A program made the position numbers and the translations under genes. Shown here piece by piece: positions 11,794 to 61,619 of a DNA stretch of 64,000 bases. The first letter of the stretch is position 1. Every line of letters begins with the position of its first letter. Under the pieces are notes generated by a model. The model did no database searches, was not told the DNA's origin, and was given only the letters and a program-made list of their open reading frames with translations. Location of the stretch: the NCBI GenBank assembly GCA_046291875.1, contig JBKBSF010000019.1, positions 19,111 to 83,110 of the forward strand. Direction: 5' to 3'. The DNA comes from Bacteroidales bacterium (GTDB taxonomy: Bacteria; Bacteroidota; Bacteroidia; Bacteroidales; UBA7960).

Positions 11794-11799
11794 GGATTA

Positions 11800-14709: not shown

Positions 14710-14720
14710 TGCTCTATGGT

Positions 14721-21541: not shown

Positions 21542-21814
21542 GGCAACCGTTTTATTAATTTATGATCAGGATATCTTAAAACTATGAAATCCTTACTGCC
21601 ACCAAAAATAAATGATGCTGAGATAAGTCACTTTTCGGCTTCTTACCAATTATTGACCAAATCTTACATTTACCAAAAAACCCACCTGCTGATGGGGCAT
21701 TTGCATTGTTTTTACTAACTTCATGCACTTGATTTTTTCATACATCCAATGCCTGCCCGGATTTTTTTTAGGCAATTTACAAAGCACTAATCTATCCTGG
21801 CATCTTGATAAAAA

Positions 21815-37739: not shown

Positions 37740-37828
37740 TTAGATTTGTGCCCTAAAATTAATCATTTTTGGGGCTCCCTTGAAGCACGGTCAATTGTAT
37801 TTTAGAGCCAGAAATCTTAATGCTGCAT

Positions 37829-38722: not shown

Positions 38723-38727
38723 GGGCG

Positions 38728-40785: not shown

Positions 40786-40979
40786 AGTACAATCGGGGTT
40801 AAAGTGGCGGAATCACTAATAAAATGGAAGAACAGGTCTTTTTGTTGTGCAGCATTAAAAATTTAAGCCTGCAATATTGCAAAAGAAAGCCCAACCACAT
40901 GTTAAATCGCGGTTAATTTTTTTTTGATGATGCTTCAGTTGCCTGCACCAAAACCCAGAGCACATCTCAAAGCATTACA

Positions 40980-41471
40980 TCAGAGGTCTTTAGGAAACAC
41001 CACAAAAGGGATTTCACGTGCAGCCATCATGATATTCTCCCATTTATCGGTCATAAATCTTATGCAAACCACTGCCGAAGTGGGCATATAATCAACCTTT
41101 TCGACAAGAAAAACATTGGCGAACCGGGTCATGTCTGGGTTATGCCCCACCAGCATCACGTGGTTTCTGTTATCGGGCAAACCATACACAACATTTTCAA
41201 TGGCCTGGGCTCCTGAGAAATACAATTGACTGTCGATAAGGATCTCCTCCCTGCTGTAACCCAACCCTTCGGCCAGAATACATGCTGTTGCATAAGCCCT
41301 CAGGGCATGGCTGGAAACAATCAGGTCAGGAGCAACCTGCTGCTTCTTCAGATAGGTAACAATGCGCCGGGTTCTTTTTTCTCCCTTGGGCAACAGGTCC
41401 CTTTCATGATCCTCCTTTGCCAGATCCTCCCACGAGGATTTGGCATGCCTCACAAGATAGAGCGTTTTCAT
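40980..41471 (-). CDS. SixA-like histidine phosphatase superfamily protein
   Basis: 163 aa. LYLVRHAKSSWE is the RHG-type catalytic motif. SSHALRAYATA and LVGHNPDM are also present. Confidence 0.8.
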   Translation of the reverse strand: MKTLYLVRHAKSSWEDLAKEDHERDLLPKGEKRTRRIVTYLKKQQVAPDLIVSSHALRAYATACILAEGLGYSREEILIDSQLYFSGAQAIENVVYGLPDNRNHVMLVGHNPDMTRFANVFLVEKVDYMPTSAVVCIRFMTDKWENIMMAAREIPFVVFPKDL

Positions 41472-45822: not shown

Positions 45823-45915
45823 GTTTAGAGAAAAGTTTGGAGAAAACACCTTTTTCTTAACATAAACTTAATGTTTTCATCACATGGAATTAATAATTTG
45901 GTAATACTCGGATGC

Positions 45916-45923
45916 TACTTTTG
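45916..45923 (+). promoter_or_regulatory. -7 box TACTTTTG upstream of the small CarboxypepD_reg-like gene
   Basis: TAnnTTTG match 90 nt upstream of the ATG at 46013. Confidence 0.4.
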
Positions 45924-46012: not shown

Positions 46013-46357
46013 ATGAAAAGATTTGCTCTTGCCACCCTTGCTTTTTTGGCCCTTAGCCTCAATGGTATTGCCGGAAATGTTGCCGAATTAAAAGAGAACC
46101 AGACGACATTCAGCATCAGCGGCACCGTACTTGACATTGCCACCGGCGAAGCACTTGCCGGAGTAAAAATTCAGATCTGCAACACAGAAACTGCTTATTC
46201 TGATTTTGATGGAAATTTCCTTGTCAGTGGTTTGCTTCCGGGCACCTACAAATTGTCGACCACCTACATTTCTTATCAATCCAATGAACTGGAGATCAAC
46301 CTGAACCCACAAGACCTGGAGAATATTGAAGTTAGGATAGGACAAGTAACAAAATAA
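46013..46357 (+). CDS. small secreted protein consisting of a single carboxypeptidase-regulatory-like (CarboxypepD_reg) domain
   Basis: 114 aa with signal peptide MKRFALATLAFLALSLNGIAG. ISGTVLDIATGEALAGVKIQI...DFDGNFLVSGLLPGTYKL resembles the N-terminal domain of TonB-dependent receptors, but without plug or barrel. Confidence 0.6.
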   Translation: MKRFALATLAFLALSLNGIAGNVAELKENQTTFSISGTVLDIATGEALAGVKIQICNTETAYSDFDGNFLVSGLLPGTYKLSTTYISYQSNELEINLNPQDLENIEVRIGQVTK

Positions 46358-46408
46358 ATCCTGCATTTGCAGAACCCCCCGACCCCTCCACAAAAAAGCC
46401 CCAATACT

Positions 46409-46443
46409 AAAAAAACCTTAACCGCCCGGTTGAGGTTTTTTTT
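46409..46443. terminator. bidirectional terminator between the convergent genes at 46013-46357 and 46460-46927
   Basis: A-run, AACCTTAACC-gccc-GGTTGAGGTT (one G-U pair), then a T8 run. Confidence 0.65.
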
Positions 46444-46459
46444 ACGGGAAATTAAGGTA

Positions 46460-46927
46460 TTAATCGAAGGATTTTTCACTCACCAGCTGGCCCTGCTCAT
46501 CGAACATGCGCCATGTGCCCGATCTTTGGCCATTCTTATACTCCATATCATACAGCAGCGTACCGTTTTCATCCCAGATATACCATTTGCCGTCTTTGTT
46601 TCCGTTCAGATAATGAGCAATGGCCATTTGCTGCCCGTTTTCGTTCCATTTGGTCCACTGACCGTGCATCTGCCCCATCTGATAGGAGCGAATCTCCTGG
46701 ATCTGTCCGTTGGAGAAGAAAAGGATCACCTGGCCGTCAATCTGTCCTTGCTTAATACTCATTTGCATTTTGAGTTGTTGCCCGCCCGGATAGTATTCTC
46801 TCCAGGGGCCGGAATAGAGTTGCTGATCAGGGCTGTAATACAGCCCATCAGCACCTTTGGTGATCTCCTGCCCATAAGTAATTCCCAGGGCCAGGATAAG
46901 AGAAATAGTTATCAACAATCGCTTCAT
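46460..46927 (-). CDS. secreted MORN-repeat-variant (YwqK-like) protein
   Basis: 155 aa with signal peptide MKRLLITISLILALGITYGQ. Has repeated G.W..(Y/W)...G motifs (GPWREYYPGG, GQVILFFSNG, GQWTKWNENG, GKWYIWDENG, GTWRMFDEQG). Confidence 0.7.
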   Translation of the reverse strand: MKRLLITISLILALGITYGQEITKGADGLYYSPDQQLYSGPWREYYPGGQQLKMQMSIKQGQIDGQVILFFSNGQIQEIRSYQMGQMHGQWTKWNENGQQMAIAHYLNGNKDGKWYIWDENGTLLYDMEYKNGQRSGTWRMFDEQGQLVSEKSFD

Positions 46928-47160
46928 AATTTATTTTTAGGGTGTATTCAGCTATGAAAATTCCGGAAGCAAGCTCCTTTGAGAATTTCTAAGCCGAAGC
47001 CGGATTTATACTAGGTTTTCTGTTTTCCCTATCAGCTTTCCAAACCTTTCAGGGTCATGAGTTCTAAGGCATTAAATGCTTTAACAAGTAAAGGCTAATG
47101 AATAAGTGTTATTTTGACCCAAGGTGGTTTAAAACAGCGTGTTTGCTCAAATATACGAAT

Positions 47161-47189
47161 AAAAGCTTTGCCCTGAAACCGGGCAAAGC
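47161..47189 (-). terminator. hairpin downstream of the 47262-47861 gene
   Basis: GCTTTGCCC-tgaaacc-GGGCAAAGC, followed by a T4 run on the minus strand. Confidence 0.5.
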
Positions 47190-47261: not shown

Positions 47262-47861
47262 TTATAGCTCCACATCATATCGCCACTCGCGTTTTTGCAA
47301 GTCATAGCGAAGGCGATCGTCGGGCCATTCGATGATCAGTTTATTACTGAGGTGTTGCTGAAGATCACCGGCAATAAGAGCAGGAAACAGAACATCTGCA
47401 AGCTCCCTGAGCCTCTCTTCTTCCAGTACTTGTGTAACAAACTCCTCTCTGTAATCCAGTAATTCAAGATCATCACCCAACCTGAAGCTTCCGCCAATGG
47501 CTCTCCGGTTTCCCAGGGGGTGTCTGGCAGGGCGGATCATGTAAAAGAAGTGCAATCCGTTGTCATCCACATAATAGCGGTAAAAATAGTAGTTGCGCGA
47601 TTGTTCTATATAAAACTGCCGGTACCGGGGCTCCATACGTGTTAGATGATCTGCATAGCGAGGTTTTACTCCCATAAGGGTAACCACATTTACCAGCAGG
47701 GAGTCCTGCTGCTCTCTGGGGATGTACCTATCGATATGATAGGTGCCCTTAGGAGGAAAAAGAATAAAGTATGCAGCGGCAGAGAGAACGATAATCACAA
47801 TTACGGTGATGGTAAAACCTTGTGCGGCTTTTTTTGTCATGACAGGGTGTTTTTTGTGCAA
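47262..47861 (-). CDS. hypothetical N-terminally membrane-anchored protein
   Basis: 199 aa with one TM segment (FTITVIVIIVLSAAAYFILF). I recognised no family motif. Supported only by ORF length, flanking terminator and intergenic spacing. Confidence 0.5.
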   Translation of the reverse strand: MHKKHPVMTKKAAQGFTITVIVIIVLSAAAYFILFPPKGTYHIDRYIPREQQDSLLVNVVTLMGVKPRYADHLTRMEPRYRQFYIEQSRNYYFYRYYVDDNGLHFFYMIRPARHPLGNRRAIGGSFRLGDDLELLDYREEFVTQVLEEERLRELADVLFPALIAGDLQQHLSNKLIIEWPDDRLRYDLQKREWRYDVEL

Positions 47862-47963
47862 ATTGATGCTCCACAGGGAGCTTAACCAAAAGAGGTGGAA
47901 CGGATTGCTTGATCCGTTCCACCTGAGATTTTTTATGATAGATTTATGGAAAAATGCATTCCA

Positions 47964-49805
47964 TTAAAAATATACCTGTACGCCGGGGAGCCATTCAGCC
48001 CAACCTTCGGTCCAGTCGACAGTACCAAAAGCACCGGAGAAGGGAACCTGCTCAAATTTATCGGCTTCGGGCACGTTATCCCATTTGGCTGCAGTAAGCA
48101 GCATAGAGTTGCTCAAGGGCAGTACAGCAGGATTAGCCACCAGGTCGAAAATGGTGGGGTTGATACCCGCATCTTCCCACTTGGCCAGCCTTTTATTGCC
48201 ATATTCAGGCTTGTTGAACCAGTTAACGATATTGAAATCAGGGTTTACATTATCCTGCTTCAGAGAAATGCCTCTGGGAGCATTGGGGTGATTGGGGCGG
48301 GGATTGCCGGAGCCATCCAGGAAGGGAAGGCCATCCACAACACCTTCAACATCGGCATTGTAGGCGGAACCGTAGCCATTGCCACCCCATCCATCAACAC
48401 CTGCAAGGATTACGTTGCGAAGTCTGAGATCATCATTCAATGCATGACCACTCGACAAACCCCTTTCGTCATCCACATAAATTCCTGCAGGGAAACCGGT
48501 AATGAAAGAGTTGTAAATACGCAACATGCTGTTTCTTCTCAGCTGGGCACCATGCTGATAATTGGTGTTAATGGGGGTTTCGCGGGTTTTCTTGGGTCCA
48601 ATCACAGTAACGTTGGCAAAGCGAGCCTGCGTAAAAGGTTGTTGTGCATTCCCTGCACCGTTATTGTCCACCTCAAAACCATTGGAACCAGATTGGTCGG
48701 CCAGGTTAGGATCGCGGATTACCAGTGCAAATTGCACGAAACCAGAGTAACCGAAATCCACATCCAGATCATCATCGAGGTTGCGGTAAGCGATCAGGTA
48801 TTTGGCATCCACAGAGCCCCCAAACCATTCGAAGGCATCATCCAAACCATAAGAACACTGGACATATTCGAGGATAGTACCTTTACCTACACTACCCATG
48901 GTAAGGGAGTTTACTTCCTCGTTAGGGTTGATAGGAATACCGGCGTATTCAATTCTTACATAACGAACAATTCCTGAAGATTCAGTAACGTCATCCAGCT
49001 CAACATCACCACCAAAGTAGGCACCATAGCCACCTTCGAGCTGCACGTTGGGGCCCTGGTTGTTTTTAACCCGGCCACACATTACCAGCCCACCCCAGTC
49101 GCCGGGGAGACGCTGACCTATCGGCTGCTCAGAGGTCATGATGATAGGATTTTCCTTGGTACCTTCGGCAAAAATCTTGCTGCCGCGCTGTACAATCAGG
49201 GTTCCTTTGGTTTCTTTATCCCCTACGATAAGGGTACCAGGCTGGATGGTAAGGGTTCCGGTTTGTTGTACGTAGGTTCCATCGCCTTGCGGCAAATCGC
49301 TTCCCACGCGAACGAAACCATTCAAACGATAAATGGTATCGCTGTACCAGGTGTGGTTGCCAAGCAAGCTTCCTGCAGGAATCTCTTTTACAGGTTTAGC
49401 AGTAACCCTGAGCTTAAGGATAACCACATCAGAAGTACGATCTCTGGTATCCTTGGCTACAAAAGAATAGTTAACCTCGCTGCCAATGGGGTCGCTAACG
49501 GTGGTTTCAAACTCCCAGGTAAAAGTAGCAGGACTTCCTGAAATGGTTTCGGTTTGGTAAGGCACACCATTTTTAGCAATCTCGAGAGTCTGAAGACCTT
49601 CGGGGGCTGTAATGGTAACGGTGACTCCAATTTTATTGCCGATGGCATTGGAAACCTGCTCAACAGACAATGTTACGACCGGACGATCTTTCAGTTCGGT
49701 ATCATCATCCTTATCGCAGGATTGCATTACAAAGCCAAAGCAAATCACTGCAAAGGCCATGAACAATGTTGCAAATTTTTGCGTGTTGTTTTTTTTGTTA
49801 CTCAT
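47964..49805 (-). CDS. large surface lipoprotein of unknown function, Ig-like N-domain plus a predicted right-handed beta-helix-like body
   Basis: 613 aa with lipobox FGFVMQSCDKDDD. About 100 aa of Ig-like beta region (VTVTITAPEGLQTLEIAKNG). Then short repetitive turns: GTLTIQPGTLIVG, GTLIVQRGSKIFAEG, GDWGGLVMCG, VRYVRIEYAG, DDAFEWFGG, DDDLDVDFGYSG, NGFEVDNNG. I cannot name a family. Confidence 0.65.
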   Translation of the reverse strand: MSNKKNNTQKFATLFMAFAVICFGFVMQSCDKDDDTELKDRPVVTLSVEQVSNAIGNKIGVTVTITAPEGLQTLEIAKNGVPYQTETISGSPATFTWEFETTVSDPIGSEVNYSFVAKDTRDRTSDVVILKLRVTAKPVKEIPAGSLLGNHTWYSDTIYRLNGFVRVGSDLPQGDGTYVQQTGTLTIQPGTLIVGDKETKGTLIVQRGSKIFAEGTKENPIIMTSEQPIGQRLPGDWGGLVMCGRVKNNQGPNVQLEGGYGAYFGGDVELDDVTESSGIVRYVRIEYAGIPINPNEEVNSLTMGSVGKGTILEYVQCSYGLDDAFEWFGGSVDAKYLIAYRNLDDDLDVDFGYSGFVQFALVIRDPNLADQSGSNGFEVDNNGAGNAQQPFTQARFANVTVIGPKKTRETPINTNYQHGAQLRRNSMLRIYNSFITGFPAGIYVDDERGLSSGHALNDDLRLRNVILAGVDGWGGNGYGSAYNADVEGVVDGLPFLDGSGNPRPNHPNAPRGISLKQDNVNPDFNIVNWFNKPEYGNKRLAKWEDAGINPTIFDLVANPAVLPLSNSMLLTAAKWDNVPEADKFEQVPFSGAFGTVDWTEGWAEWLPGVQVYF

Positions 49806-49882
49806 TGTTTGTTTTTTAAATAATTGTTTTTGTTAGCTATTATGGGCCCAGTGCCCGATGGTTTACTAAAAATTCATGGTAG

Positions 49883-49890
49883 CAAAAGTA
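49883..49890 (-). promoter_or_regulatory. -7 box TACTTTTG (minus strand) upstream of the lipoprotein gene
   Basis: Plus-strand CAAAAGTA lies 78 nt upstream of the start at 49805. Confidence 0.4.
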
Positions 49891-50037
49891 GTGGGCCAAT
49901 GTAAACTTCACGTTAATAAATCCTGATCAAATCATTAAAAAACACAATCGTATCATTCTCATTCACAGCTCACTGCATTTAACCTTTCCATAACATAATC
50001 ATAACATTGGCTTAACATCTGCCCTTGCACAGGAGGC

Positions 50038-50045
50038 TAATTTTG
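50038..50045 (+). promoter_or_regulatory. -7 box TAATTTTG upstream of the TonB-dependent receptor gene
   Basis: TAnnTTTG match 90 nt upstream of the ATG at 50135. Confidence 0.4.
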
Positions 50046-50134
50046 CCCTTTGTATACTAAGGTGTATTGCATCCGTTTGAATGAAGTTTGCAAACACGTT
50101 TCTGAACATCCACAAACCTTACAACAAAACAATA

Positions 50135-53026
50135 ATGAGCCATTACAGCAGAATTCTTTTTTCCGTTTGTTTGTTAACCCTTTGCAGTTTTTTGGCCCTT
50201 GGCCAGTCGGGCAATATAGAGGGGATTGTTTATGATGCACGCACCAAGGAGAGGCTTGTGGGTGCGCAGATCGTAATTCAGGGAACCGGCATAGGTGCTT
50301 CCGCCAACCTCAATGGCGAGTTTCGGTTGGTAAACATACCCCATGAGCGTGCCGACCTTCTGGTTTCCTTTATTTCCTATGAACCGGTTGTGATCGAGAA
50401 TATCCGCATAGAACGTGGCAGAACCATAACTCTTGAAGTGGAGATGCATGAGGTAAGCTACCAACTGGAAGGAGTTACCGTAACCGCCCGCCGCACAACC
50501 CATACCGAAACCGCACTGATTACATCACTTCGCAACAGCCAGGTGGTAACCAGCGGTATTTCTGCACAGCAAATCAGCCGATCACAAGACAGCGATGCGG
50601 CCCAGGTAGTAAGAAGGATACCCGGTGTGACCATTATTGAAGATCGTTTCATTATTGTGCGGGGATTGAGTGAACGCTACAACACGGTGATGCTCCATAA
50701 TGTAATTGCCCCCAGTATGGAGGCCGATGTGCGTTCCTTTTCGTTCGACATTATTCCCAGCTCACAAATCGAGCAGCTGCTCATTCATAAAAGCCCCTCG
50801 GCCGATTTACCCGGCAACTTTGCCGGAGGTGCCATCCAGATCATCACCAAGGCCATTCCCGACCGCAGTGGATTTGAGATTTCCTACACCAACCGCTACG
50901 ATGATGGCACTACATTTCGCAATTTCTACCGATCTGAACGATCTGACAACGCGTGGATGGGATTTGGATCGGACTATTTTTCCCTTCCTGAAGATTTTCC
51001 ACGCGATTTACGCACCATCACCAATAATAATGCGGAACTGGAACGTATGGGCAAATCCCTGAAAAACAACTGGATCCCCATTGAAGAAACAGCCTTTCTC
51101 AACCAAAGTGCTTCACTGGCTGGCATGTTGCGGTTCAATTTATTGGGCATGGAGGTGGGAAATATCACTACCCTCAGCTACAGCAATAGTAAGTCAACCA
51201 ACGAGGTATTCCGCAGCGATTACAACTCATACAACCATGGCACTTTCGACCCCAACGGCAATGTAATTATCGCTCCTCAAAGCCTGCCTATTTACAATTT
51301 CTACGACGATCGCTTTTCAAACAACATCCGTTTGGGAGTGCTGCACAACTGGGGTATCAATATATCCAAAGATCATTCTGTTGAAATTATCAACCTGTTT
51401 AACCACAACAGCACCTATCGTTATGTAAACCGGCAAGGCGATCATATTGACTTTGGTGCCACCATGAACAACCACAATTTCCAGCAGATCTTTCGCGGAT
51501 TGTATTCGGGGCAAATGAACGGCAAACATCAACTGACTTCTTCAACCAAATTAAACTGGACTGCGGGTCTGAGCAACTCTTTCCGCGAAATGCCCGACTA
51601 TAAGCAATACAGAACCGACCGCAACATCAACGACCCCGAGAGCGATTTCAGCATCTATGTACCTATTGGGGGGGCGCAACCCTATTTCATGGGAAGGTTC
51701 TATTCCTCCATGGAAGAGAAAGGACACACCTATGCTGGCAACATAAGCCAGACGATAAACCTGAATGCAATCCCTTCTCTGAAGCCCGAGTTCAAAGCCG
51801 GCTTTTTTACAGACTATATGGAGCGCGAATTTATTGCCCGTAACATTGGTTACACCGCAAGCACCTTATTCTTTCCGCAAGACCTTCGCAGGGTCTCTAT
51901 CGATTCGCTGTTTCATCCTGACTACCTAAGCATCACACAGGGCACAGGCCTTATCAAACTTGACGAGCAATCCAACCCCCAGGATTCTTATGAAACCTCC
52001 AACGACCTTTTTGCCTGGTACGGGATGGTGGTATTGCCCATGGCAGACCGTTTCACCCTGTCGGCAGGACTGAGAGTAGAGCAAAACCGTCGCATCCTTA
52101 AAAGTGCAACCACAACAGGCCCTGTAAATGTCGACAACAACGAAACCCATAATTTGCTCTCGATAAACATGACCTACAATCTCTCTCAAAAGCTTTTGCT
52201 GCGTGCAGCCTACGGAAAAACTATAAACCGGCCGGAGCTCAGAGAGATGGCCCCTTTTGGGTTCTATGACTTCGACAACAATTGGGTAGTGTCGGGCAAT
52301 CCTTTCCTTAAGACAGCTCTGATCGACAATTATGACCTGAGGCTCGAATATTACCCCAGCCTTTCGGAGGTGATCTCCATTGCCGGCTTTTATAAGGTTT
52401 TCGAAAACGCCATCGAAAGAGTGGTTCTGGTAGGTGCCGGATCAGGTGGCAGCAAAAACTTCTCCTTTGGCAATGCCGATGAAGCACTTGTGTATGGAGT
52501 AGAAGCCGAAGTAAGAAAAAGCCTCATGGGGATGACCGGGATAACTTTTTTCGATAACCTGTCCGTGTACTTTAATACGTCTTTACTCAAAAGTACCGTT
52601 ACCATTGGTTCAGGATCGCGCTCTGCAGGCAGAGATACCGACCCACGCCCCCTGCAGGGTCAATCGCCCTACATTGTAAATGCAGGGTTGTTTTACAACA
52701 ATACAGATGCTGATTTGCAGGTAAACCTGTTGTACAATATCATAGGGAAACGTCTGTTTACGGGAGGTATACGTGAGCTTGACAAAGTAACCATAACCTA
52801 TCCTGACATCTATGAAATGCCCCGCAATCACCTTGAACTGACCGTTTCTAAAAGACTAAGCCGACACATCAGCATGAAGGCAGGGATCATCGATATCCTC
52901 AATGAGCCTGTTGTATTCCTGCAAGATGCCAATGAGGATGGCATCTTTGATCGCAACAACGACCAGATCCTACGCCGGTACAGACCCGGAATATCTGCCA
53001 CACTGGGGCTTACTTTTAAAATGTAA
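50135..53026 (+). CDS. TonB-dependent receptor with an N-terminal CarboxypepD_reg domain, no adjacent SusD-like gene
   Basis: I prefer the start MSHYSRILFSVCLLTLCSFLALGQ (signal peptide) at 50135. IEGIVYDARTKERLVGAQIVIQGT is CarboxypepD_reg-like. Plug motif AAQVVRRIPGVTIIEDRFIIVRGLSERYN, followed by a long beta-barrel. Confidence 0.88.
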   Translation: MSHYSRILFSVCLLTLCSFLALGQSGNIEGIVYDARTKERLVGAQIVIQGTGIGASANLNGEFRLVNIPHERADLLVSFISYEPVVIENIRIERGRTITLEVEMHEVSYQLEGVTVTARRTTHTETALITSLRNSQVVTSGISAQQISRSQDSDAAQVVRRIPGVTIIEDRFIIVRGLSERYNTVMLHNVIAPSMEADVRSFSFDIIPSSQIEQLLIHKSPSADLPGNFAGGAIQIITKAIPDRSGFEISYTNRYDDGTTFRNFYRSERSDNAWMGFGSDYFSLPEDFPRDLRTITNNNAELERMGKSLKNNWIPIEETAFLNQSASLAGMLRFNLLGMEVGNITTLSYSNSKSTNEVFRSDYNSYNHGTFDPNGNVIIAPQSLPIYNFYDDRFSNNIRLGVLHNWGINISKDHSVEIINLFNHNSTYRYVNRQGDHIDFGATMNNHNFQQIFRGLYSGQMNGKHQLTSSTKLNWTAGLSNSFREMPDYKQYRTDRNINDPESDFSIYVPIGGAQPYFMGRFYSSMEEKGHTYAGNISQTINLNAIPSLKPEFKAGFFTDYMEREFIARNIGYTASTLFFPQDLRRVSIDSLFHPDYLSITQGTGLIKLDEQSNPQDSYETSNDLFAWYGMVVLPMADRFTLSAGLRVEQNRRILKSATTTGPVNVDNNETHNLLSINMTYNLSQKLLLRAAYGKTINRPELREMAPFGFYDFDNNWVVSGNPFLKTALIDNYDLRLEYYPSLSEVISIAGFYKVFENAIERVVLVGAGSGGSKNFSFGNADEALVYGVEAEVRKSLMGMTGITFFDNLSVYFNTSLLKSTVTIGSGSRSAGRDTDPRPLQGQSPYIVNAGLFYNNTDADLQVNLLYNIIGKRLFTGGIRELDKVTITYPDIYEMPRNHLELTVSKRLSRHISMKAGIIDILNEPVVFLQDANEDGIFDRNNDQILRRYRPGISATLGLTFKM

Positions 53027-53050: not shown

Positions 53051-53083
53051 AAAAAAGGCTGCTTCATGATGAAGCAGCCTTTT
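53051..53083. terminator. bidirectional terminator between the TBDR gene and the convergent 53116-53889 gene
   Basis: AAAAAAGGCTGCTTCATGATGAAGCAGCCTTTT is a near-perfect palindrome flanked by A and T runs. Confidence 0.75.
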
Positions 53084-53115: not shown

Positions 53116-53889
53116 TCAGGCAATTCTTTTCATCCGCAGCACAGTAAACAATACAATCAGACCCAGACCCAGGATCAAAGCCCAGTTGGATAGGGGCACG
53201 GGTTGTGGTTCACCACCATCGTCACCGCCGGGCACTTCACTACCAAAAGTTACATTGTCGAAGCCAATAAAGTTGGCGGCACCGATAAACTTAATGGACT
53301 TGGCAACACCCTCAAAGCTCACACCAATGGGTTGCCAGATGTTATATGCTCCGCCGGGAATATTCAATGAGCCCAGGGGGGCAAGATTTAAGGAAGCAAT
53401 CATATTGCCCATTCCTCCTACTTCGTCGTAAACCTCAACACTACCAGGACGATCAATAGAAGAGTAGAAGAACGAAAACCCTGTTTCGAAACCTGCCGCA
53501 TAATTCATGATGGCATTATTCTCATCCAGAAAGAACATGATGGTGGAAGGGCTGGGTTCGTTCTGGAAGTTTCCTGTACCACCTGCATAACCGGCAATAA
53601 TAGAAAGGGTAGATCCAGAGAAGGTAACACCATAATCGGGTCCTGGCCCAATGCCGCCTCCGGCAAAGCCACCATTGTAATAATCGAGCACCTGCTGCAC
53701 ATTACCCAGGCCTTCAAAGTCGAGCACTACAACTCCGGATTTGGAAGGAGTGGGTGTAGCTGCCTGCAACTGTTCTGGAGTAACGGTTGGTGTAATGGAA
53801 GGATCATGGATGGTTTTCTGGGCAAAAACACCCATAGGTAGGGCCAACATTACTGATGCAAAAATCAGGGTATAAAGTTTGTTTTTCAT
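53116..53889 (-). CDS. secreted protein with a PEP-CTERM / IPTL-CTERM-like C-terminal sorting signal
   Basis: I prefer the start MKNKLYTLIFASVMLALPMGVFAQ at 53889. The C-terminus is tripartite: GGEPQPVPLSNW, a hydrophobic helix ALILGLGLIVLFTVL, and a basic RMKRIA. Upstream VLDFEGLG and FDNVTFGS resemble typical PEP-CTERM cargo. Confidence 0.7.
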   Translation of the reverse strand: MKNKLYTLIFASVMLALPMGVFAQKTIHDPSITPTVTPEQLQAATPTPSKSGVVVLDFEGLGNVQQVLDYYNGGFAGGGIGPGPDYGVTFSGSTLSIIAGYAGGTGNFQNEPSPSTIMFFLDENNAIMNYAAGFETGFSFFYSSIDRPGSVEVYDEVGGMGNMIASLNLAPLGSLNIPGGAYNIWQPIGVSFEGVAKSIKFIGAANFIGFDNVTFGSEVPGGDDGGEPQPVPLSNWALILGLGLIVLFTVLRMKRIA

Positions 53890-53928
53890 AGCGATTTGTT
53901 TTGTCGTTATACATAATTTATTTATCGA

Positions 53929-53936
53929 CAAACTTA
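53929..53936 (-). promoter_or_regulatory. -7 box TAAGTTTG (minus strand) upstream of the PEP-CTERM-like protein gene
   Basis: Plus-strand CAAACTTA lies 40 nt upstream of the start at 53889. Confidence 0.4.
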
Positions 53937-54999: not shown

Positions 55000-56856
55000 A
55001 TGTGCGGAATACTGGGCTTTTGTGAGGGTCGTGCACCCCGAAAAGATATTGACACCCTTGCATTGCTGCTGGCCCATCGAGGACCCGATGCCCGTGGTGT
55101 ATTTGCAGAAAACAATACTACCCTGGCTCACCTGAGATTAAGCATCCTCGACCTTAGCGATGACGCCAACCAGCCTATGTTTTCTCATTGCAAACGATAC
55201 GTAATGGTTTACAATGGAGAAGTATACAATTTTCGCGAGATCCAGACCCGGCTGAAAGAAAAAAATCCTTCCTTTGCTGCCCGCACCCAATCCGACAGCG
55301 AGATAATCCTGGAGGCTTTTGCTGCATTCGGGCCCGATTTCGTGCATCAACTCAATGGCATGTTTGCCATCGCCATCTGGGACAGAGAGCAAAACAGCCT
55401 TTATCTTTACCGCGACAGGTTGGGAATAAAGCCCATTTATTATTACCACCTTGAGGGCCGACTGGGCTTTGCATCGGAACTCAAGGTACTGGAGGCCTCC
55501 TTCGATCAATCGCTACAGGTAGACTACCAGGCAGTAAATGCCTTTCTGCACCTGGGTTACATACCGGCACCCTTGAGCATTTATCGCCAGATCAGAAAGT
55601 TTCCGGCTGGCTGCATGGGCGTTTTGGCAAAGGGTGAATTTCAGATACAACCCTACTGGCAGGCAGAAGAGAAAATCGGTGCCTCTCTGATGGAAGATCC
55701 GTTGGAGGCCCGCAAACAACTCACTGCCCTCATTGAATCTTCAGTGCGATATCGATTGGTTTCCGATGTGCCCTATGGCACCTTCCTGAGCGGAGGAATC
55801 GACTCCAGCCTGGTAACTGCAGTGGCCCAGAGCCTGCACCAACAGCCCATCAATACCTTCTCCATCGGTTTCTGGGACCAGAAGTTCAATGAGGCCGATC
55901 ATGCACGTTCTGTGGCAAAACACCTGGGCACACACCACCACGAGTTTATGGTAACCGAGAAGGATGCACTTCACTGGATGCCACTGCTCAACGACATATA
56001 CGACGAGCCCTATGCGGATTCCTCAGCAATACCTACCCTGCTGGTATCGCAAATGGCACGCAAGCATGTTACCATGACACTCTCTGGCGATGGAGGGGAT
56101 GAACTATTTATGGGCTACGGAGCCTATAAATGGGCACAACGATTGGCAAACCCGTGGGTGAAACTATTGAGCTATCCGGCAGCAGTCTTACTGCCTTTCG
56201 GGCCCGCAAAATATCGAAGAGCTGCCAGGTTGTTCGAAAACCCAGCCATGAAAACATTGCACAGCCATATTTTCTCACAGGAGCAATATTTGTTCAGCAG
56301 GAAGGAAATAGCCCAATACCTCAACCCAGAATACTTCTCCGATTTCCCGATGAGAGAAAATCTTTCGGTTGGCGCACGAAAACTCAATGCAGCAGAAGAG
56401 CAGGCGCTGTTCGATTTGTTGTACTACCTGCCCGACGATCTGCTGGTAAAAGTAGACCGTGCCAGCATGCACTTCGCCCTGGAAACCCGGGTTCCCCTTC
56501 TCGATTACAGGATCGTTGAATGGGCTTTGAACCTGCACCCCAGTCTCAAGCAACGCAACTCACAGGCCAAATGGCTTCTTAAGGAAGTATTGTATCAATA
56601 CGTACCGGCTCATCTTTTTCAACGCCCCAAAAGAGGCTTTGCCATTCCCTTGCAAAAATGGCTCAGAAAAGATCTTCGAAGTTTTGCCATGGATCATCTC
56701 CATCCCGATGCCATCCGGCAAACCGGATTGCTGAACCCAAAAGCCGTGGATGCGCTTTTGAAAAACTTTTACAACAAAGATCAGCACTATCTCTACAACC
56801 GGATATGGCAATTGCTCGTACTGCAGCGCTGGTTTTTGAGCAAAACAACACCATAA
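55000..56856 (+). CDS. asparagine synthase family glutamine amidotransferase (AsnB-like)
   Basis: 618 aa. MCGILGF provides the N-terminal nucleophile Cys2. YNGEVYNF is present, and FLSGGIDSS is the PP-loop ATP pyrophosphatase motif. Confidence 0.9.
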   Translation: MCGILGFCEGRAPRKDIDTLALLLAHRGPDARGVFAENNTTLAHLRLSILDLSDDANQPMFSHCKRYVMVYNGEVYNFREIQTRLKEKNPSFAARTQSDSEIILEAFAAFGPDFVHQLNGMFAIAIWDREQNSLYLYRDRLGIKPIYYYHLEGRLGFASELKVLEASFDQSLQVDYQAVNAFLHLGYIPAPLSIYRQIRKFPAGCMGVLAKGEFQIQPYWQAEEKIGASLMEDPLEARKQLTALIESSVRYRLVSDVPYGTFLSGGIDSSLVTAVAQSLHQQPINTFSIGFWDQKFNEADHARSVAKHLGTHHHEFMVTEKDALHWMPLLNDIYDEPYADSSAIPTLLVSQMARKHVTMTLSGDGGDELFMGYGAYKWAQRLANPWVKLLSYPAAVLLPFGPAKYRRAARLFENPAMKTLHSHIFSQEQYLFSRKEIAQYLNPEYFSDFPMRENLSVGARKLNAAEEQALFDLLYYLPDDLLVKVDRASMHFALETRVPLLDYRIVEWALNLHPSLKQRNSQAKWLLKEVLYQYVPAHLFQRPKRGFAIPLQKWLRKDLRSFAMDHLHPDAIRQTGLLNPKAVDALLKNFYNKDQHYLYNRIWQLLVLQRWFLSKTTP

Positions 56857-57007
56857 TTAATACTTTGCTAACCATCAATTAATGCTGTCTTAACAGCTTT
56901 TGATTGTAGCTGGGGTAACTTTGCAATGTAGATATCATCTGAATTATTCTTCGGTTTCCATTCTTCTGATGATTCTCTCTTCATGTTGTGTTTTGATGAA
57001 TAAACGG

Positions 57008-57035
57008 AAAGCCGGGCCCAGCACCCGGCTTTTTT
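57008..57035 (+). terminator. intrinsic-terminator-like hairpin about 150 nt downstream of asnB and 40 nt upstream of the next ORF
   Basis: AAAGCCGGG-cccagca-CCCGGCTTT followed by a T-run (TTTTTT). Confidence 0.55.
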
Positions 57036-57074
57036 AAGAATGAACTGTTCAGAAAACCCCAAAACCCTTCTTCT

Positions 57075-58448
57075 ATGACACTTCGGCAAGGCAATGTTGC
57101 ATCGCAAACAGAAAAAGAAACTCCTTCCCGTGAAACTGCAGAGCCATCAAACTCAAAAGCCTGGCTGGCCACTGCCAATATGGGGTATGGTCATTTGCGG
57201 GCGTTGTATCCTGTTCGCAGCATCTCGCCATCGGAAATCATAGAAGTGGGCGATGATGCATCTACCCCTCATACGGAGCGTAAACTATGGCGGCGCATCC
57301 TCCGATTGTACGAGTTTCTGTCGCGGGCAAAATCAATTCCGGTGATAGGCAGAAGTCTTTTCCGCTTGCTTGATTTTTTCCTGCGTATTCCATCCTTCTA
57401 TCCTTTTCGGGATCTTTCCAAAAGCACTTTCCAGGTTCGCATGTTAACTTCCAGCATCAGAAAGGGATTGTGTAAGGGTATGCTGGAGCGGATTTCCCAA
57501 AGCCCACTGCCCCTTGTTACCAGTTTTTATGCTCCGGCCATTGCTGCCGACACACAAGGACATCCGAGGGTTTTCTGTATCATTTGCGATACCGACCTCA
57601 ACCGTGTATGGGTAAGCCAAGACCCATGGGAAAGCCGGATCGAATACTTTGCCCCTACCGGTCGGGCTGCACGCCGGTTGAAAGCGTATGGTGTGCCAGA
57701 AAACCGGATACATCTCAGCGGCTTTCCACTTCCCTTAGAATTACTGGGCAACACTGATCTGGATGTTTTGAAAGCAGACCTGGGCCAGCGATTGCACTAC
57801 CTTGACCCCGCAAACAGATTTTGGCCTCTGCACGAACGCAATGTCAACTATTTTCTAGGAGAAGACAACTGCAGGTTTCTCAACCAGCGCAAACTCACCA
57901 TTACCTTCGCAGTTGGAGGTGCCGGAGCTCAAAAACATATAGGCAAAAAGATTGCTGTGAGTCTGCGTGAAAAACTCATGGCAAATCAGATCCAACTTAA
58001 CCTTGTGGCGGGCACCCGCACCGAAGTGATCGATTTTTTCCTCGATGTACAGGAAGAGATCAACAGCCAAAGTATTAAAGTGATTTTCGGGAAGGATTTT
58101 CCGGAATACTATGCAAAATTCAACCAGACACTCCGAACCACAGATATCCTGTGGAGCAAACCCAGTGAACTTTCCTTCTACTGCGCCCTGGGCATACCCA
58201 TTATTATGACACCTACTATAGGAGCACAGGAGAGGGCAAACCGTAAATGGTTGCGAGAAATACAAGCGGGATTCAAACAAGAAGATCCCCGCTACACCGA
58301 TCAGTGGTTGTTCGATCTTATCAACAAAGGCAGGCTGGCAGAAGCAGCATGGGCCGGTTTTCTGAAGGCACGCAAACGTGGCACTTTCAACATCATCGAT
58401 TTTCTGCAAGATGGCACCATAAACTCCCACAGCCAGCTCATCCGTTAA
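57075..58448 (+). CDS. divergent GT-B glycosyltransferase, UgtP/MGDG-synthase-like (GT28-like)
   Basis: 457 aa. WLATANMGYGHLRALY resembles the LTANYGNGH / TGGGH N-terminal motif of UgtP/MGDG synthases. C-half TFAVGGAGAQKHIG...ILWSKPSELSFYCALGIPIIM matches a GT-B C-domain pattern. Weaker than the next gene. Confidence 0.55.
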   Translation: MTLRQGNVASQTEKETPSRETAEPSNSKAWLATANMGYGHLRALYPVRSISPSEIIEVGDDASTPHTERKLWRRILRLYEFLSRAKSIPVIGRSLFRLLDFFLRIPSFYPFRDLSKSTFQVRMLTSSIRKGLCKGMLERISQSPLPLVTSFYAPAIAADTQGHPRVFCIICDTDLNRVWVSQDPWESRIEYFAPTGRAARRLKAYGVPENRIHLSGFPLPLELLGNTDLDVLKADLGQRLHYLDPANRFWPLHERNVNYFLGEDNCRFLNQRKLTITFAVGGAGAQKHIGKKIAVSLREKLMANQIQLNLVAGTRTEVIDFFLDVQEEINSQSIKVIFGKDFPEYYAKFNQTLRTTDILWSKPSELSFYCALGIPIIMTPTIGAQERANRKWLREIQAGFKQEDPRYTDQWLFDLINKGRLAEAAWAGFLKARKRGTFNIIDFLQDGTINSHSQLIR

Positions 58449-58509
58449 CATTTCCGATACAATAACTTAACGCAAAGGTAATTGCATCTTCAGGATCACT
58501 TAACATTGG

Positions 58510-61563: not shown

Positions 61564-61619
61564 CGCAAGTTGCGGGTTTTCTGTGTAAATAATTCTTTTT
61601 GGATGACGAGGATTTTCCT

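What the first reader, a model, noticed from the sequence alone, without database searches (positions are those of the whole stretch)
47964..53026. Divergent pair: unknown 613-aa beta-helix-like surface lipoprotein and a SusD-less TonB-dependent receptor
Seen in sequence: a lipoprotein (lipobox VMQSC) has an Ig-like N-domain and a body full of short turn motifs (GDWGG, IEYAG, DDAFEWFGG, DDDLDVDFGYSG, GFEVDNNG). It is transcribed divergently from a CarboxypepD_reg-plug-barrel TBDR. The 329-nt shared control region has TAnnTTTG boxes on both strands (49883-49890 minus, 50038-50045 plus). Established knowledge: Bacteroidota TBDRs normally pair with SusD-like lipoproteins for glycans, or with HmuY/BtuG-type lipoproteins for heme and B12. 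This lipoprotein resembles none of those as far as I can tell. Inference: this is a distinct surface-capture or enzyme plus transporter module for an unidentified substrate.
Basis: partly seen in the sequence, partly recalled or inferred. Interest (0 to 1): 0.55.

Follow-up and report, generated by a model that had tools for sequence, protein, structure and literature searches.

The report
Phosphate-starvation TonB transporter with beta-helix lipoprotein
This gene pair is a new member of a widespread, already described outer-membrane uptake module, a TonB-dependent transporter plus a beta-helix surface lipoprotein (the ElpS/BT4056 family), that bacteria switch on when phosphate is scarce; what it imports is still unknown.

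Summary
There is a 613-aa lipoprotein (47964-49805, minus strand) with an Ig-like N-domain and a confidently predicted right-handed beta-helix body. It lies divergent from a non-SusC TonB-dependent receptor (TBDR; 50135-53026).

It is not an unknown kind. The lipoprotein carries Pfam PF28492 (Beta_helix_4). By homology and synteny it belongs to the family of Caulobacter ElpS, B. thetaiotaomicron BT4056 and the F. johnsoniae FI/FII/FIII lipoproteins. That family was already reported as a conserved partner, or putative "lid", of a TBDT in 621 genera, and it is induced by phosphate starvation.

In 80 genome loci an orthologous TBDR is adjacent in 71. The usual order is the same-strand operon TBDR->lipoprotein->~190-aa protein; the divergent layout is specific to this clade.

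New here:
- Four tandem 11-bp half-sites (C[AT]TAACAT) lie upstream of the TBDR -7 box.
- The same repeat precedes PitA, porin O/P, Na/Pi-cotransporter, GDPD and phosphonate genes in related loci.
- It matches the DAP-seq core (TTTAACA) of the Riemerella Pho-type regulator.

The best reading is a Pho-regulated module in which the surface beta-helix protein captures or processes a phosphorus-bearing substrate for TonB-driven import. The substrate is unidentified. Verdict: new member of a known kind, moderate-low interest.

The parts
47964..49805 (-). Surface lipoprotein, 613 aa. Signal peptide and lipobox with Cys30 (nt 49716-49805), acidic export-signal-like CDKDDD, Ig-like domain (residues ~40-135, nt ~49401-49688), right-handed beta-helix body plus C-terminal cap (residues 136-613, nt 47967-49400). 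Pfam PF28492 Beta_helix_4; ElpS/BT4056 family.
   Evidence: (PF28492 = Beta_helix_4 on all 120 listed homologues, including one 97% identical)
50135..53026 (+). TonB-dependent receptor/transporter, 963 aa from M19 (the ORF opens at 50081). CarboxypepD_reg N-terminal extension + plug + 22-strand-type barrel. Not SusC family.
   Evidence: (orthologues score 650-1400 bits next to the lipoprotein gene)
49978..50018 (+). Four tandem half-sites at 11-bp spacing (TTTAACCT / CATAACAT / CATAACAT / CTTAACAT). Putative binding array (two dimers) for a Pho-type OmpR-family regulator, 19 nt upstream of the TBDR -7 box.
   Evidence: 0 of 5000 shuffles of the spacer give a 16/16 dimer; conserved in 4 relatives; Riemerella PhoP DAP-seq core TTTAACA
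50038..50045 (+). TAATTTTG, Bacteroidota-type -7 promoter element of the TBDR gene.
   Evidence: CTAATTTTGC is invariant in 5 sequences
49883..49890 (-). TACTTTTG, -7 promoter element of the lipoprotein gene.
   Evidence: CAAAAGTA is invariant in 5 sequences
49903..49921 (-). Weaker direct repeat on the minus strand (ATTAACGT-gaa-GTTTACAT, 12/16), upstream of the lipoprotein -7 box. Possible second regulator site.
   Evidence: (conserved block), read from the sequence; inference
47262..47840 (-). Conserved third gene 'p199', 192 aa from M8. Here it has an N-terminal hydrophobic anchor; in most taxa it is a small lipoprotein. Motifs RPAR..RGVxG, FEExxNTP, EWPDxxLxYDxxxxEW. No known family.
   Evidence: directly downstream of the lipoprotein gene in 65 of 80 loci
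47893..47924 (-). Perfect 13-14-bp GC-rich hairpin between the lipoprotein gene and p199. Possible attenuator or partial terminator.
46460..46927 (-). Secreted MORN-repeat (YwqK-like) protein, 155 aa. Recurs near the module in 11 loci and in Parabacteroides distasonis. The overlapping + strand ORF 46367..46957 is not the gene.
46013..46357 (+). Small CarboxypepD_reg-domain protein, 114 aa. Recurs in 12 loci.
45856..45874 (+). Second Pho-box-like dimer (CTTAACATAAACTTAATGT, 14/16) upstream of the small CarboxypepD_reg gene, followed by TACTTTTG at 45916-45923. Conserved in L001, L002, L006 and L003.
53053..53083 (+). Terminator-like hairpin after the TBDR gene.
47165..47189 (-). Terminator-like hairpin after p199.

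Best explanation
The locus encodes a member of the ElpS/BT4056-type outer-membrane module. This module is a non-SusC TonB-dependent transporter plus a surface-exposed beta-helix lipoprotein (Pfam Beta_helix_4), here with a conserved small third protein (p199).

Most likely mechanism:
1. When phosphate is scarce, a Pho-type OmpR-family response regulator binds the array of 11-bp direct repeats that occupies the -33 region of the TBDR promoter, and probably a weaker site in front of the lipoprotein gene. Both divergent genes are activated.
2. The lipoprotein is lipidated at Cys30 and flipped to the cell surface through its acidic export signal.
3. On the surface its beta-helix groove, lined with universally conserved Asp/Glu/Asn residues (probably metal-bridged), binds or processes a phosphorus-containing ligand.
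4. The ligand is passed to the TBDR, which imports it into the periplasm using TonB energy. Periplasmic phosphatases and Pi transporters then finish the job.

Shown here: gene structure, fold, family membership by homology and synteny, conserved linkage, and conserved repeat arrays shared with phosphate genes.

Taken from the literature on homologues: induction by Pi starvation, surface exposure and release, and the predicted contact with the TBDT's outer face.

Inferred: regulator binding, ligand binding, and the identity of the ligand.
For: Family:
- All 120 listed homologues carry PF28492 Beta_helix_4.
- BLASTP to the Parabacteroides TBDR-adjacent protein: 45% identity, E 5e-89.
- BLASTP to the Sphingomonas protein sitting in the elpS-TBDR-T2SS layout: 36% identity, E 8e-38. 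The partner TBDRs are also homologous, E 4e-53.
- That same layout is described for ElpS/CC0170-CC0171. BT4056 is reported as homologous to Fjoh_0546 and ElpS, with the pair conserved in 621 genera.

Linkage:
- A TBDR is adjacent in 71 of 80 loci, and upstream on the same strand in 65.
- The pair also occurs in Alteromonas/Pseudoalteromonas next to ExbB-ExbD-TonB.

Phosphate link:
- F. johnsoniae FI/FII and their TBDTs are strongly induced under Pi depletion only. ElpS is Pi-starvation-induced, and the Caulobacter PhoB regulon includes the T2SS that releases it and various TBDRs.
- Alteromonas has phoB-phoR-pstS immediately upstream of the pair.
- In Aquirufa/Spirosomaceae loci, PitA, PhnZ, a TIGR03364 oxidoreductase and a PhnX-like hydrolase lie directly downstream.
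- The repeat C[AT]TAACAT-N3-C[AT]TAACAT is 7.5 times denser upstream of the TBDR than in other intergenic DNA. It is present in 26 of 66 loci at >=14/16 and in 45 of 66 at >=13/16.
- Its other sites precede PitA (7 loci), Porin_O_P, Na_Pi_cotrans+PhoU, GDPD, phosphonate genes and an OmpR-type regulator.
- The core matches the Riemerella PhoP DAP-seq motif TTTAACA.
- The window itself carries ppk1, ppx and an MGDG-synthase-like glycosyltransferase next to a metallophosphoesterase.

Precedent: Pi-induced TBDT-lipoprotein complexes (PusCD) import organophosphorus.
Against: - No expression or binding data exist for this organism.
- The repeat is not detected upstream of the pair in the gut Bacteroidales loci, nor upstream of the TBDR in L003. 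Pho control may therefore not be universal.
- B. thetaiotaomicron BT4055/BT4056 mutants show no fitness phenotype, and AlphaFold-Multimer gave only few high-confidence contacts for that pair.
- In Caulobacter the TBDR cc0171 was reported as constitutive and elpS as independently regulated.
- ElpS and FI are abundant in the medium and some family members carry T9SS tails. This fits a stable 'lid' less well than a released binding protein or an enzyme.
- I could not retrieve the CC0170, BT4056 or Fjoh_0546 sequences, so membership rests on proxies.
Confidence: 0.65

Rival explanations
1. Enzyme-first model. The beta-helix lipoprotein is not a lid or binding partner. It is a surface or secreted enzyme (lyase, hydrolase or phosphodiesterase-like) that cleaves an extracellular phosphorus-bearing polymer, for example a phosphorylated glycan, teichoic-acid-like polymer or nucleic acid. 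The TBDR imports the fragments.
For: - The fold is that of pectate-lyase-like enzymes, and every Foldseek neighbour is a lyase, hydrolase, epimerase or tailspike depolymerase.
- A cluster of Asp/Glu residues is conserved across phyla (D323, D344, D345, D348, D350, E378, D380 in true numbering). An Arg-Arg pair is invariant within Bacteroidota. This resembles Ca2+-dependent lyase sites.
- ElpS overexpression raises phosphatase activity in the supernatant, and ElpS and FI are released from cells.
- T9SS-secreted and multi-copy giant variants exist.
Against: - Refolded and immunoprecipitated ElpS had no phosphatase activity on pNPP.
- No sequence or profile match to any CAZy-type or other enzyme family in Pfam, NCBIfam or the PDB.
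- Structural matches are only at fold level (TM <= 0.37).
- The very tight one-to-one pairing with one TBDR orthologue group is more typical of a transport partner.
Confidence: 0.25
2. Glycan-uptake module unrelated to phosphorus: a SusD-less PUL-like pair in which the beta-helix protein binds or cuts a polysaccharide.
For: - Pectin-lyase-like fold.
- The TBDR's best NCBIfam relative is the TonB-Xanth-Caul subfamily. From my own knowledge, that subfamily contains sugar importers.
- Lidbury et al. speculated about plant cell-wall targets.
Against: - No CAZymes, sugar kinases or HTCS/ECF regulators recur next to the pair in 80 loci. The recurrent neighbours are phosphate and phosphonate genes.
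- The F. johnsoniae homologues respond to Pi depletion only.
- The window's galactan PUL (9122-25864) is 22 kb away and has its own SusCD.
Confidence: 0.05
3. Metal or other micronutrient uptake, with the acidic beta-helix acting as a cation-binding surface protein.
For: - Many conserved Asp/Glu residues.
- One related locus (L003) has a heavy-metal P-type ATPase next to the TBDR.
Against: - The ATPase adjacency is seen once.
- The F. johnsoniae loci are reported as tightly repressed under Fe and N limitation.
- No Fur-type or metal-regulator association was found, and no metallophore genes lie nearby.
Confidence: 0.05

Closest known systems
ElpS (CC0170) with TBDR CC0171 of Caulobacter crescentus (Le Blastier et al. 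2010, PMC2996285)
   Same: - Lipoprotein encoded next to a TBDR.
- Homologous by proxy: a Sphingomonas protein in the identical elpS-TBDR-gsp layout matches the window protein at E 8e-38, and its TBDR matches at E 4e-53.
- Linked to phosphate starvation and surface-exposed.
   Different: - ElpS is ~50 kDa without the Ig-like N-domain.
- Gene order is lipoprotein->TBDR, followed by a T2SS cluster whose protease releases ElpS.
- Bacteroidota lack that T2SS and use an acidic lipoprotein export signal, or a T9SS tail in some members.
- cc0171 was reported as constitutive.
BT4055/BT4056 of Bacteroides thetaiotaomicron, a putative non-SusD 'lid' family (Price, Deutschbauer & Arkin 2023, bioRxiv 10.1101/2023.03.17.533168)
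   Same: - Non-SusC TBDT followed by a pectin-lyase-superfamily lipoprotein.
- The pair is conserved across Bacteroidota and Proteobacteria.
- Gut Bacteroidales homologues (P. distasonis 45% identity, B. finegoldii) have the same TBDR->lipoprotein order.
   Different: - Gut versions lack p199.
- At my thresholds they show no Pho-box-like repeat upstream.
- The window's genes are divergent.
- The BT4056 sequence itself could not be compared.
F. johnsoniae low-Pi-inducible lipoproteins FI/FII/FIII (Fjoh_3856, Fjoh_0546, Fjoh_4889) with TBDTs Fjoh_3857 and Fjoh_0545 (Lidbury et al. 2020, PMC8115612)
   Same: - Pectin-lyase-fold lipoproteins next to plug + CarbopepD_reg_2 TBDTs.
- Pho-regulon context.
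- Related loci in my set sit beside Porin_O_P, an OmpR-type regulator and a Na/Pi cotransporter, like the phoBR-linked FII cluster.
   Different: - Flavobacteriales members lack the Ig-like N-domain (matches start at residue ~134-143).
- Expression is shown there and not here.
- No direct sequence comparison was possible.
SusCD and PusCD TBDT-surface-lipoprotein complexes
   Same: - What it works like: a surface lipoprotein partnering a TonB-dependent transporter with a CarboxypepD_reg N-terminal extension.
- PusCD are Pi-induced organophosphorus importers.
   Different: - The TBDR fails the SusC model (42.9 vs 368 bits).
- The lipoprotein is an all-beta helix, not the alpha-helical TPR-like SusD fold.
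- No SusD gene is adjacent.
BtuB-BtuG, HmuR-HmuY and XusA-XusB pairs
   Same: Non-SusD surface lipoprotein handing a small ligand to a TBDT. HmuY-like proteins are also released from cells, a possible analogy for a shuttle role.
   Different: Unrelated folds (beta-propeller or all-beta HmuY fold) and no sequence similarity. Their ligands (B12, haem, siderophores) are known.
Right-handed parallel beta-helix enzymes (PL1/PL6/PL9 lyases, AlgE/AlgG epimerases, phage tailspikes)
   Same: Overall fold class, and stacked acidic residues along the helix.
   Different: Only fold-level similarity (Foldseek E >= 0.01, TM <= 0.37). No Pfam, NCBIfam or PDB sequence match.

Membership tests
ElpS / BT4056 / FI-FIII beta-helix lipoproteins (Pfam PF28492 Beta_helix_4) | Carries the Beta_helix_4 domain | tested here: met
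   The precomputed Pfam annotation PF28492 is on all 120 best homologues, including a 97%-identical cluster. My local Pfam copy returned no hit for the window protein and never listed this family, so the window protein was not scored directly.
ElpS / BT4056 / FI-FIII beta-helix lipoproteins (Pfam PF28492 Beta_helix_4) | Lipoprotein signal (lipobox Cys), with a surface-export signal in Bacteroidota | tested here: met
   ...FVMQS-C30-DKDDD. The Cys is invariant in 53 homologues and the consensus is SCxKDxEL. Surface exposure itself was not tested.
ElpS / BT4056 / FI-FIII beta-helix lipoproteins (Pfam PF28492 Beta_helix_4) | Pectin-lyase-superfamily (right-handed beta-helix) fold | tested here: met
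   AF2 body model has pLDDT 96 and pTM 0.94. All Foldseek PDB neighbours are right-handed beta-helices, though the matches are weak.
ElpS / BT4056 / FI-FIII beta-helix lipoproteins (Pfam PF28492 Beta_helix_4) | Encoded adjacent to a non-SusC TonB-dependent transporter, conserved across families and phyla | tested here: met
   71 of 80 genome loci. Also seen in Parabacteroides, Bacteroides, Sphingomonas, Indioceanicola, Alteromonas and Pseudoalteromonas.
ElpS / BT4056 / FI-FIII beta-helix lipoproteins (Pfam PF28492 Beta_helix_4) | Sequence homology to the named members CC0170 (ElpS), BT4056 and Fjoh_0546 | not testable with these tools
   These sequences could not be retrieved. Proxies were used: the Sphingomonas protein in the elpS-TBDR-T2SS layout (E 8e-38) and the P. 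distasonis TBDR-adjacent PF28492 protein (E 5e-89).
ElpS / BT4056 / FI-FIII beta-helix lipoproteins (Pfam PF28492 Beta_helix_4) | Induced by phosphate starvation (Pho regulon) | tested here: inconclusive
   No expression data. Supporting evidence is a conserved array of four 11-bp half-sites upstream of the TBDR. The same repeat is shared with PitA, porin O/P, Na/Pi cotransporter, GDPD and phn genes, and it matches the Riemerella PhoP motif core.
SusC/RagA TonB-linked outer membrane proteins (TIGR04056) | Scores above the trusted cut-off of TIGR04056 | tested here: not met
   42.9 bits against a cut-off of 368.25, and only over the N-terminal extension.
SusC/RagA TonB-linked outer membrane proteins (TIGR04056) | Adjacent SusD/RagB-family lipoprotein gene | tested here: not met
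   No SusD_RagB or SusD-like hit among the neighbours. The window's only SusD is at 13123-14709, in a separate PUL.
Polysaccharide lyases / glycoside hydrolases of the beta-helix fold (PL1, PL3, PL6, PL9, GH28 and others) | Sequence or close structural match to a family member with its catalytic signature | tested here: not met
   No Pfam or NCBIfam hit even at E<=10. No PDB sequence or profile hit. Best Foldseek E is 0.011 and best TM 0.32/0.37.
BtuG / HmuY / XusB (DUF4374) TBDT-associated lipoproteins | Membership of the corresponding Pfam families or folds | tested here: not met
   No Pfam hit. The predicted fold is Ig-like domain plus beta-helix, not a beta-propeller or HmuY fold.

The most novel reading that the evidence does not exclude
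The beta-helix protein is a Ca2+/metal-dependent capture or processing protein for a polyanionic phosphorus polymer, such as polyphosphate, a teichoic-acid-like polymer or phosphorylated glycan, or extracellular nucleic acid. It would act as a surface-anchored or released 'phosphophore' shuttle that feeds a dedicated TBDT. The so far undescribed p199 lipoprotein would be an obligatory third component of the complex. This would define a second, non-SusD class of TonB-dependent phosphorus importers used by two phyla. The TTAACAT direct-repeat array would be the general Bacteroidota Pho box.
Probability: 0.2. Interest if true: 0.65.

Novelty: new member of a known kind. Interest (0 to 1): 0.3.

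Why it matters
TonB-dependent transporters with non-SusD surface partners are a poorly understood part of the Bacteroidota outer membrane. This pair is among the most widespread of them: 621 genera in the literature, and 8,684 clusters at 50% identity for the lipoprotein family here. No substrate is known for it.

Three points make the open question (what phosphorus form does this module import?) directly testable:
- The locus sits inside a Pho-type regulon, supported by a conserved repeat array.
- A third conserved gene (p199) accompanies the pair in most Bacteroidota.
- There is a defined set of universally conserved acidic residues.

The repeat array may also serve as a working Pho-box model for regulon prediction in environmental Bacteroidota. 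For this particular window, however, the finding is an ordinary member of a described family.

Tried and rejected
- Riboswitch or other cis-RNA in the spacer: the Rfam E-value scan of 49500-50400 gave only noise far below the gathering scores.
- Sequence match to solved structures: phmmer and a 53-sequence profile found nothing. The TBDR also has no PDB sequence relative at E<=1e-3.
- Foldseek with the full-length model: the list was swamped by Ig-domain hits. I re-predicted the body alone and got only fold-level beta-helix hits.
- Direct link to BT4056: the second large homologue search, using the P. distasonis protein, returned only Parabacteroides clusters. I judged a third search unlikely to reach B. 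thetaiotaomicron, F. johnsoniae or Caulobacter and did not run it.
- p199: no Pfam hit for 13 members and no PDB profile hit.
- Sigma-70 promoter scan: at chance level, as expected for Bacteroidota.
- TAnnTTTG count in the window: equal to the shuffled expectation. Only conservation supports the two boxes.
- Pho-box-like repeat in gut Bacteroidales loci (L087, L092, L093), in L004, and upstream of the TBDR in L003: not found at >=13/16.
- Metal-uptake idea from the P-type ATPase in L003: the adjacency is seen once, so I rejected it.
- MoxR as part of the module: it recurs only in Cyclobacteriaceae-type loci, so I treated it as neighbourhood.
- Numbering caveat: alignment A1 and searches used a query lacking Met1, so their residue numbers are one lower than the true numbering used in this report.
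Full report
1. Observation

The two ORFs are as described. The minus-strand ORF 47964..49805 encodes 613 aa. The plus-strand ORF 50081..53026 encodes 981 aa.

The lipoprotein begins MSNKK...FGFVMQS-C30-DKDDDTE. This is a signal peptide with a lipobox cysteine, followed by an acidic stretch that fits the K-(D/E)2-type lipoprotein export signal of Bacteroidota (my own knowledge; Price et al. describe such signals).

The TBDR has CarbopepD_reg_2 + Plug + TonB_dep_Rec_b-barrel domains. It fails the SusC model (42.9 bits against a cut-off of 368). Its best NCBIfam relative is the TonB-Xanth-Caul subfamily, below cut-off. Its true start is probably M19 at 50135: a signal peptide follows, and the orthologues start at the equivalent place.

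The two TAnnTTTG boxes are at the stated coordinates. Window-wide the motif occurs exactly as often as in shuffles, 45 against 45.5, so count alone means nothing. Both boxes are invariant in an alignment with four related spacers. No Rfam family matches the spacer.

2. Structure

AlphaFold2 with a 53-sequence alignment gives a confident model: pLDDT 92.4 for the full length and 96.0 with pTM 0.94 for residues 136-613. Residues ~40-135 match FN3/PKD/Ig-like domains.

The body gives only weak Foldseek hits (E >= 0.011, TM <= 0.37). All of them are right-handed parallel beta-helix proteins: tailspikes, PL1/PL6/PL9 lyases and AlgE/AlgG epimerases. Neither the sequence nor a profile finds anything among PDB sequences. 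There is no close solved relative and no recognisable catalytic family.

3. The family is large and already has a Pfam entry

The local Pfam and NCBIfam copies give no hit. In the large protein database, however, every one of the 120 best homologues carries PF28492, whose name is Beta_helix_4.

An exhaustive profile search of 1.84 billion representatives finds 8,684 clusters at 50% identity with E <= 1e-3, and 3,330 with E <= 1e-30. Many are long proteins with several copies of the domain. Some Bacteroidota members are 950-1050 aa with PKD domains and a T9SS Por_Secre_tail instead of a lipobox.

4. Linkage

In 80 genome loci from GTDB species representatives, spread across Bacteroidales, Cytophagales, Flavobacteriales, Chitinophagales, Sphingobacteriales and Saprospiraceae, an orthologous TBDR (650-1400 bits to the window's) is adjacent in 71:
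- 65 times upstream on the same strand, 62 of them within 400 nt
- 3 times divergent, as in the window
- 3 times downstream

Of the 9 loci without a TBDR, 5 are cut off by the contig end on the upstream side. The divergent layout is confined to the window's own clade (L001, L002, L006, L007, L022).

A third gene, p199 in my shorthand (47262..47840 here), follows the lipoprotein gene directly in 65 of 80 loci. In most taxa it is a small lipoprotein. In this clade it has an uncleaved-looking hydrophobic anchor. It has conserved motifs (RPAR..RGVxG, FEExxNTP, EWPDxxLxYDxxxxEW) and no Pfam or PDB relative.

A secreted MORN-repeat protein (46460..46927, minus strand) and a small CarboxypepD_reg protein (46013..46357) recur in 11-12 loci. 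The MORN protein also follows the pair in Parabacteroides distasonis.

5. The pair crosses phyla and is the known ElpS-type module

tblastn against plasmids and chromids finds homologues in Pseudoalteromonas, Alteromonas, Marinobacter, Sphingomonas, Indioceanicola, Parabacteroides, Phocaeicola and Bacteroides.
- In Sphingomonas parapaucimobilis and Indioceanicola the order is homologue -> TBDR -> gspN/D/E....
- In Alteromonas macleodii it is phoB-phoR-pstS-(2OG oxygenase)-homologue-TBDR-DUF3450-ExbB-ExbB-ExbD-TonB. Pseudoalteromonas is similar.
- The window lipoprotein aligns to the Sphingomonas protein at 36% identity (E 8e-38). The two TBDRs align over 841 residues (E 4e-53).
- Against the P. 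distasonis TBDR-adjacent protein (PF02368 + PF28492) it is 45% identical (E 5e-89). B. finegoldii has TBDR -> a frameshifted homologue.

The literature describes exactly this:
- Le Blastier et al. 2010 found that Caulobacter CC0170 (ElpS), encoded next to the TBDR CC0171 and the T2SS genes, is an outer-membrane surface lipoprotein. It is produced on phosphate starvation, released in a T2SS-dependent way, and associated with (but not itself having) alkaline phosphatase activity. The same tandem occurs in Sphingomonas and Xanthomonas, and homologues occur in Shewanella and Bacteroides.
- Lidbury et al. 2020 found the F. johnsoniae lipoproteins FI/FII/FIII (Fjoh_3856, Fjoh_0546, Fjoh_4889; pectin-lyase fold, related to ElpS). 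FI and FII are encoded next to Pi-induced TBDTs. All are induced only under Pi depletion. FI is the most abundant exoprotein.
- Price, Deutschbauer & Arkin 2023 listed BT4055/BT4056 among six families of non-SusD 'lids'. They noted that BT4056 is 40% identical to Fjoh_0546 and distantly related to ElpS. It has no Pfam but belongs to the pectin-lyase superfamily. The pair is in proximity in 621 genera (394 Bacteroidota, 171 Proteobacteria). AlphaFold-Multimer placed it on the TBDT's outer face with few high-confidence contacts, and there was no fitness phenotype.

I could not obtain the CC0170, BT4056 or Fjoh sequences, so membership rests on the proxies above. I rate membership at about 0.9.

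6. Independent evidence for phosphate control

Reading the spacer, I found CATAACAT-aat-CATAACAT-tgg-CTTAACAT, preceded by TTTAACCT. That makes four half-sites at 11-bp spacing (49978-50018), ending 19 nt before the TBDR -7 box. None of 5,000 shuffles of the spacer gives a perfect dimer. The four half-sites are conserved in the four related divergent spacers.

Across the 80 loci the dimer C[AT]TAACAT-N3-C[AT]TAACAT (>=14/16) occurs:
- 34 times in 17.8 kb of TBDR-upstream DNA (26 of 66 loci; 45 of 66 at >=13/16)
- 30 times in 120 kb of other intergenic DNA
- twice in 1.25 Mb of coding DNA

The 'other' sites are not random. They precede the lipoprotein gene (7), PitA (7 loci), PhnZ/GNAT and PhnX-like phosphonate genes, a Porin_O_P gene, a Na/Pi cotransporter with a PhoU domain, a GDPD phosphodiesterase, an OmpR-type response regulator, and the small CarboxypepD_reg and MORN genes. 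In the window the only other site at >=14/16 is 45856-45874, upstream of the small CarboxypepD_reg gene.

For the phosphate-starvation-responsive regulator PhoP of Riemerella anatipestifer (Flavobacteriales), DAP-seq gave an ArcA-like motif whose most conserved nucleotides are TTTAACA. That is the core of this repeat. I found no published Bacteroidota Pho box beyond that.

The window's neighbourhood fits. It contains relA/spoT, ppx/gppA, ppk1 and a histidine phosphatase upstream. Downstream are an MGDG-synthase-like GT28 glycosyltransferase and a calcineurin-like metallophosphoesterase. Those last two carry the Pfam families (PF04101, PF12850) that Lidbury et al. list for Pi-stress lipid remodelling.

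Limits: the repeat is not found upstream of the pair in the gut Bacteroidales loci I could read, and no expression data exist for this organism.

7. Mechanism

Best model (confidence 0.65):
- It is a Pho-regulated outer-membrane uptake module.
- A Pho-type regulator binds the repeat array in place of a -33 element and activates the divergent genes.
- A strong hairpin after the lipoprotein gene (47893-47924) may let it be expressed in excess over p199. Terminator-like hairpins close both units.
- The lipoprotein reaches the surface. Its beta-helix carries a cluster of acidic residues conserved from Bacteroidota to Proteobacteria (true numbering D323, D344, D345, D348, D350, E378, D380, plus the GDWGG and FGG turns). 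This cluster plausibly coordinates a metal that bridges an anionic, phosphorus-bearing ligand.
- The TBDR then imports the ligand with TonB energy.

The recently characterised PusCD complexes show that Pi-induced TBDT-lipoprotein pairs do import organophosphorus for periplasmic hydrolysis.

Homologues are abundant in culture supernatants and some carry T9SS tails. The protein may therefore act as a released shuttle, hemophore-like, as much as a fixed lid.

Main rival (0.25): the beta-helix is an enzyme that releases importable fragments from an extracellular phosphorus-bearing polymer. Glycan-only and metal-uptake readings are unlikely (0.05 each).

8. Novelty and verdict

The module is, however, an already described and very widespread family with a known physiological context. 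This locus is a new member of a known kind.

Modest additions from this work:
- the conserved repeat array as a candidate Bacteroidota Pho box
- p199 as a conserved third component
- the finding that the divergent layout is clade-specific
- the list of universally conserved acidic residues

The substrate remains the real open question. Interest: 0.3.

Noticed in passing
window 53116-53931 (-), probable start ~53892: A secreted ~258-aa protein with no family hit. Its C-terminus (PVPLSNWALILGLGLIVLFTVLRMKRIA) looks like a PEP-CTERM-type sorting tail. The gene is absent at this position in the closest relatives L001/L002. Its neighbours are a TPR protein (best NCBIfam hit PrsT, below cut-off) and an AsnB-like amidotransferase (XrtA/PEP-CTERM amidotransferase model at 506 bits, below cut-off).
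   Followed up: partly
window 35472-41471 (-) and 55000-60448 (+): The module is flanked by phosphorus genes. Upstream: relA/spoT, ppx/gppA, ppk1 and a histidine phosphatase. Downstream: AsnB-like, DUF6938, an MGDG-synthase-like GT28 glycosyltransferase and a calcineurin-like metallophosphoesterase (PlcP-like). The last two look like a phosphate-stress lipid-remodelling pair. No Pho-box-like repeat was found in front of them at >=13/16.
   Followed up: partly
window 47262-47840 (-); L006-L085 directly downstream of the beta-helix gene: p199 is a lipoprotein (signal peptide plus Cys) in most taxa. In the window's clade it has a hydrophobic N-terminal anchor without a Cys. The papers I read on this module do not mention it. 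It matches no Pfam or PDB entry.
   Followed up: partly
window 47946-48977 (+) and 46367-46957 (+): Long ORFs antisense to the lipoprotein gene (343 aa) and to the MORN gene (196 aa). They are shadow ORFs, not genes: the minus-strand genes have homologues and conserved synteny.
   Followed up: yes
window 9122-25864: A separate galactan-type polysaccharide utilisation locus: GH53, GH2, SusC/SusD/SusE-like genes, an unknown 855-aa protein and a hybrid two-component regulator. Galactose-utilisation genes (aldose epimerase, GalK, SSF transporter, GalE-like) lie at 1753-8965.
   Followed up: no
L028, L032, L035, L037, L039-L042, L047, L050, L076 (upstream of the TBDR): In Cyclobacteriaceae-type loci a MoxR AAA+ ATPase gene sits directly upstream of the TBDR. 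In Riemerella the Pho-type regulator PhoP directly controls moxR/the Bat operon (PMC9603813). The adjacency may reflect a shared regulon.
   Followed up: no
NZ_CP110137.1 35582-36877 (Hymenobacter plasmid; hits H2/H11): The beta-helix homologue there is annotated 'cell shape-determining protein MreB'. This is almost certainly a misannotation.
   Followed up: no
representatives P0241-P0312; L088 5184-9254; L086 7785-10580: Many family members are giants of 900-2400 aa with up to 9 matched stretches of the beta-helix domain. The Alteromonas (1356 aa) and Pseudoalteromonas (931 aa) TBDR-adjacent proteins are examples.
   Followed up: no
L063, L065, L067, L068, L072, L079, L083, L085 (Aquirufa/Spirosomaceae): The operon is followed by a metalloenzyme-superfamily (AP-like) gene, one or two PitA genes, and a phosphonate cluster (PhnZ-type oxygenase, TIGR03364 oxidoreductase, PhnX-like hydrolase, GNAT). 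A conserved 112-121-aa secreted protein of unknown family is divergent from the TBDR.
   Followed up: partly
window 60526-63974 (-): A PorP/SprF T9SS membrane protein next to a PKD-repeat protein with a CHU_C T9SS sorting domain. A Fur-family regulator lies at 34830-35381 (-).
   Followed up: no
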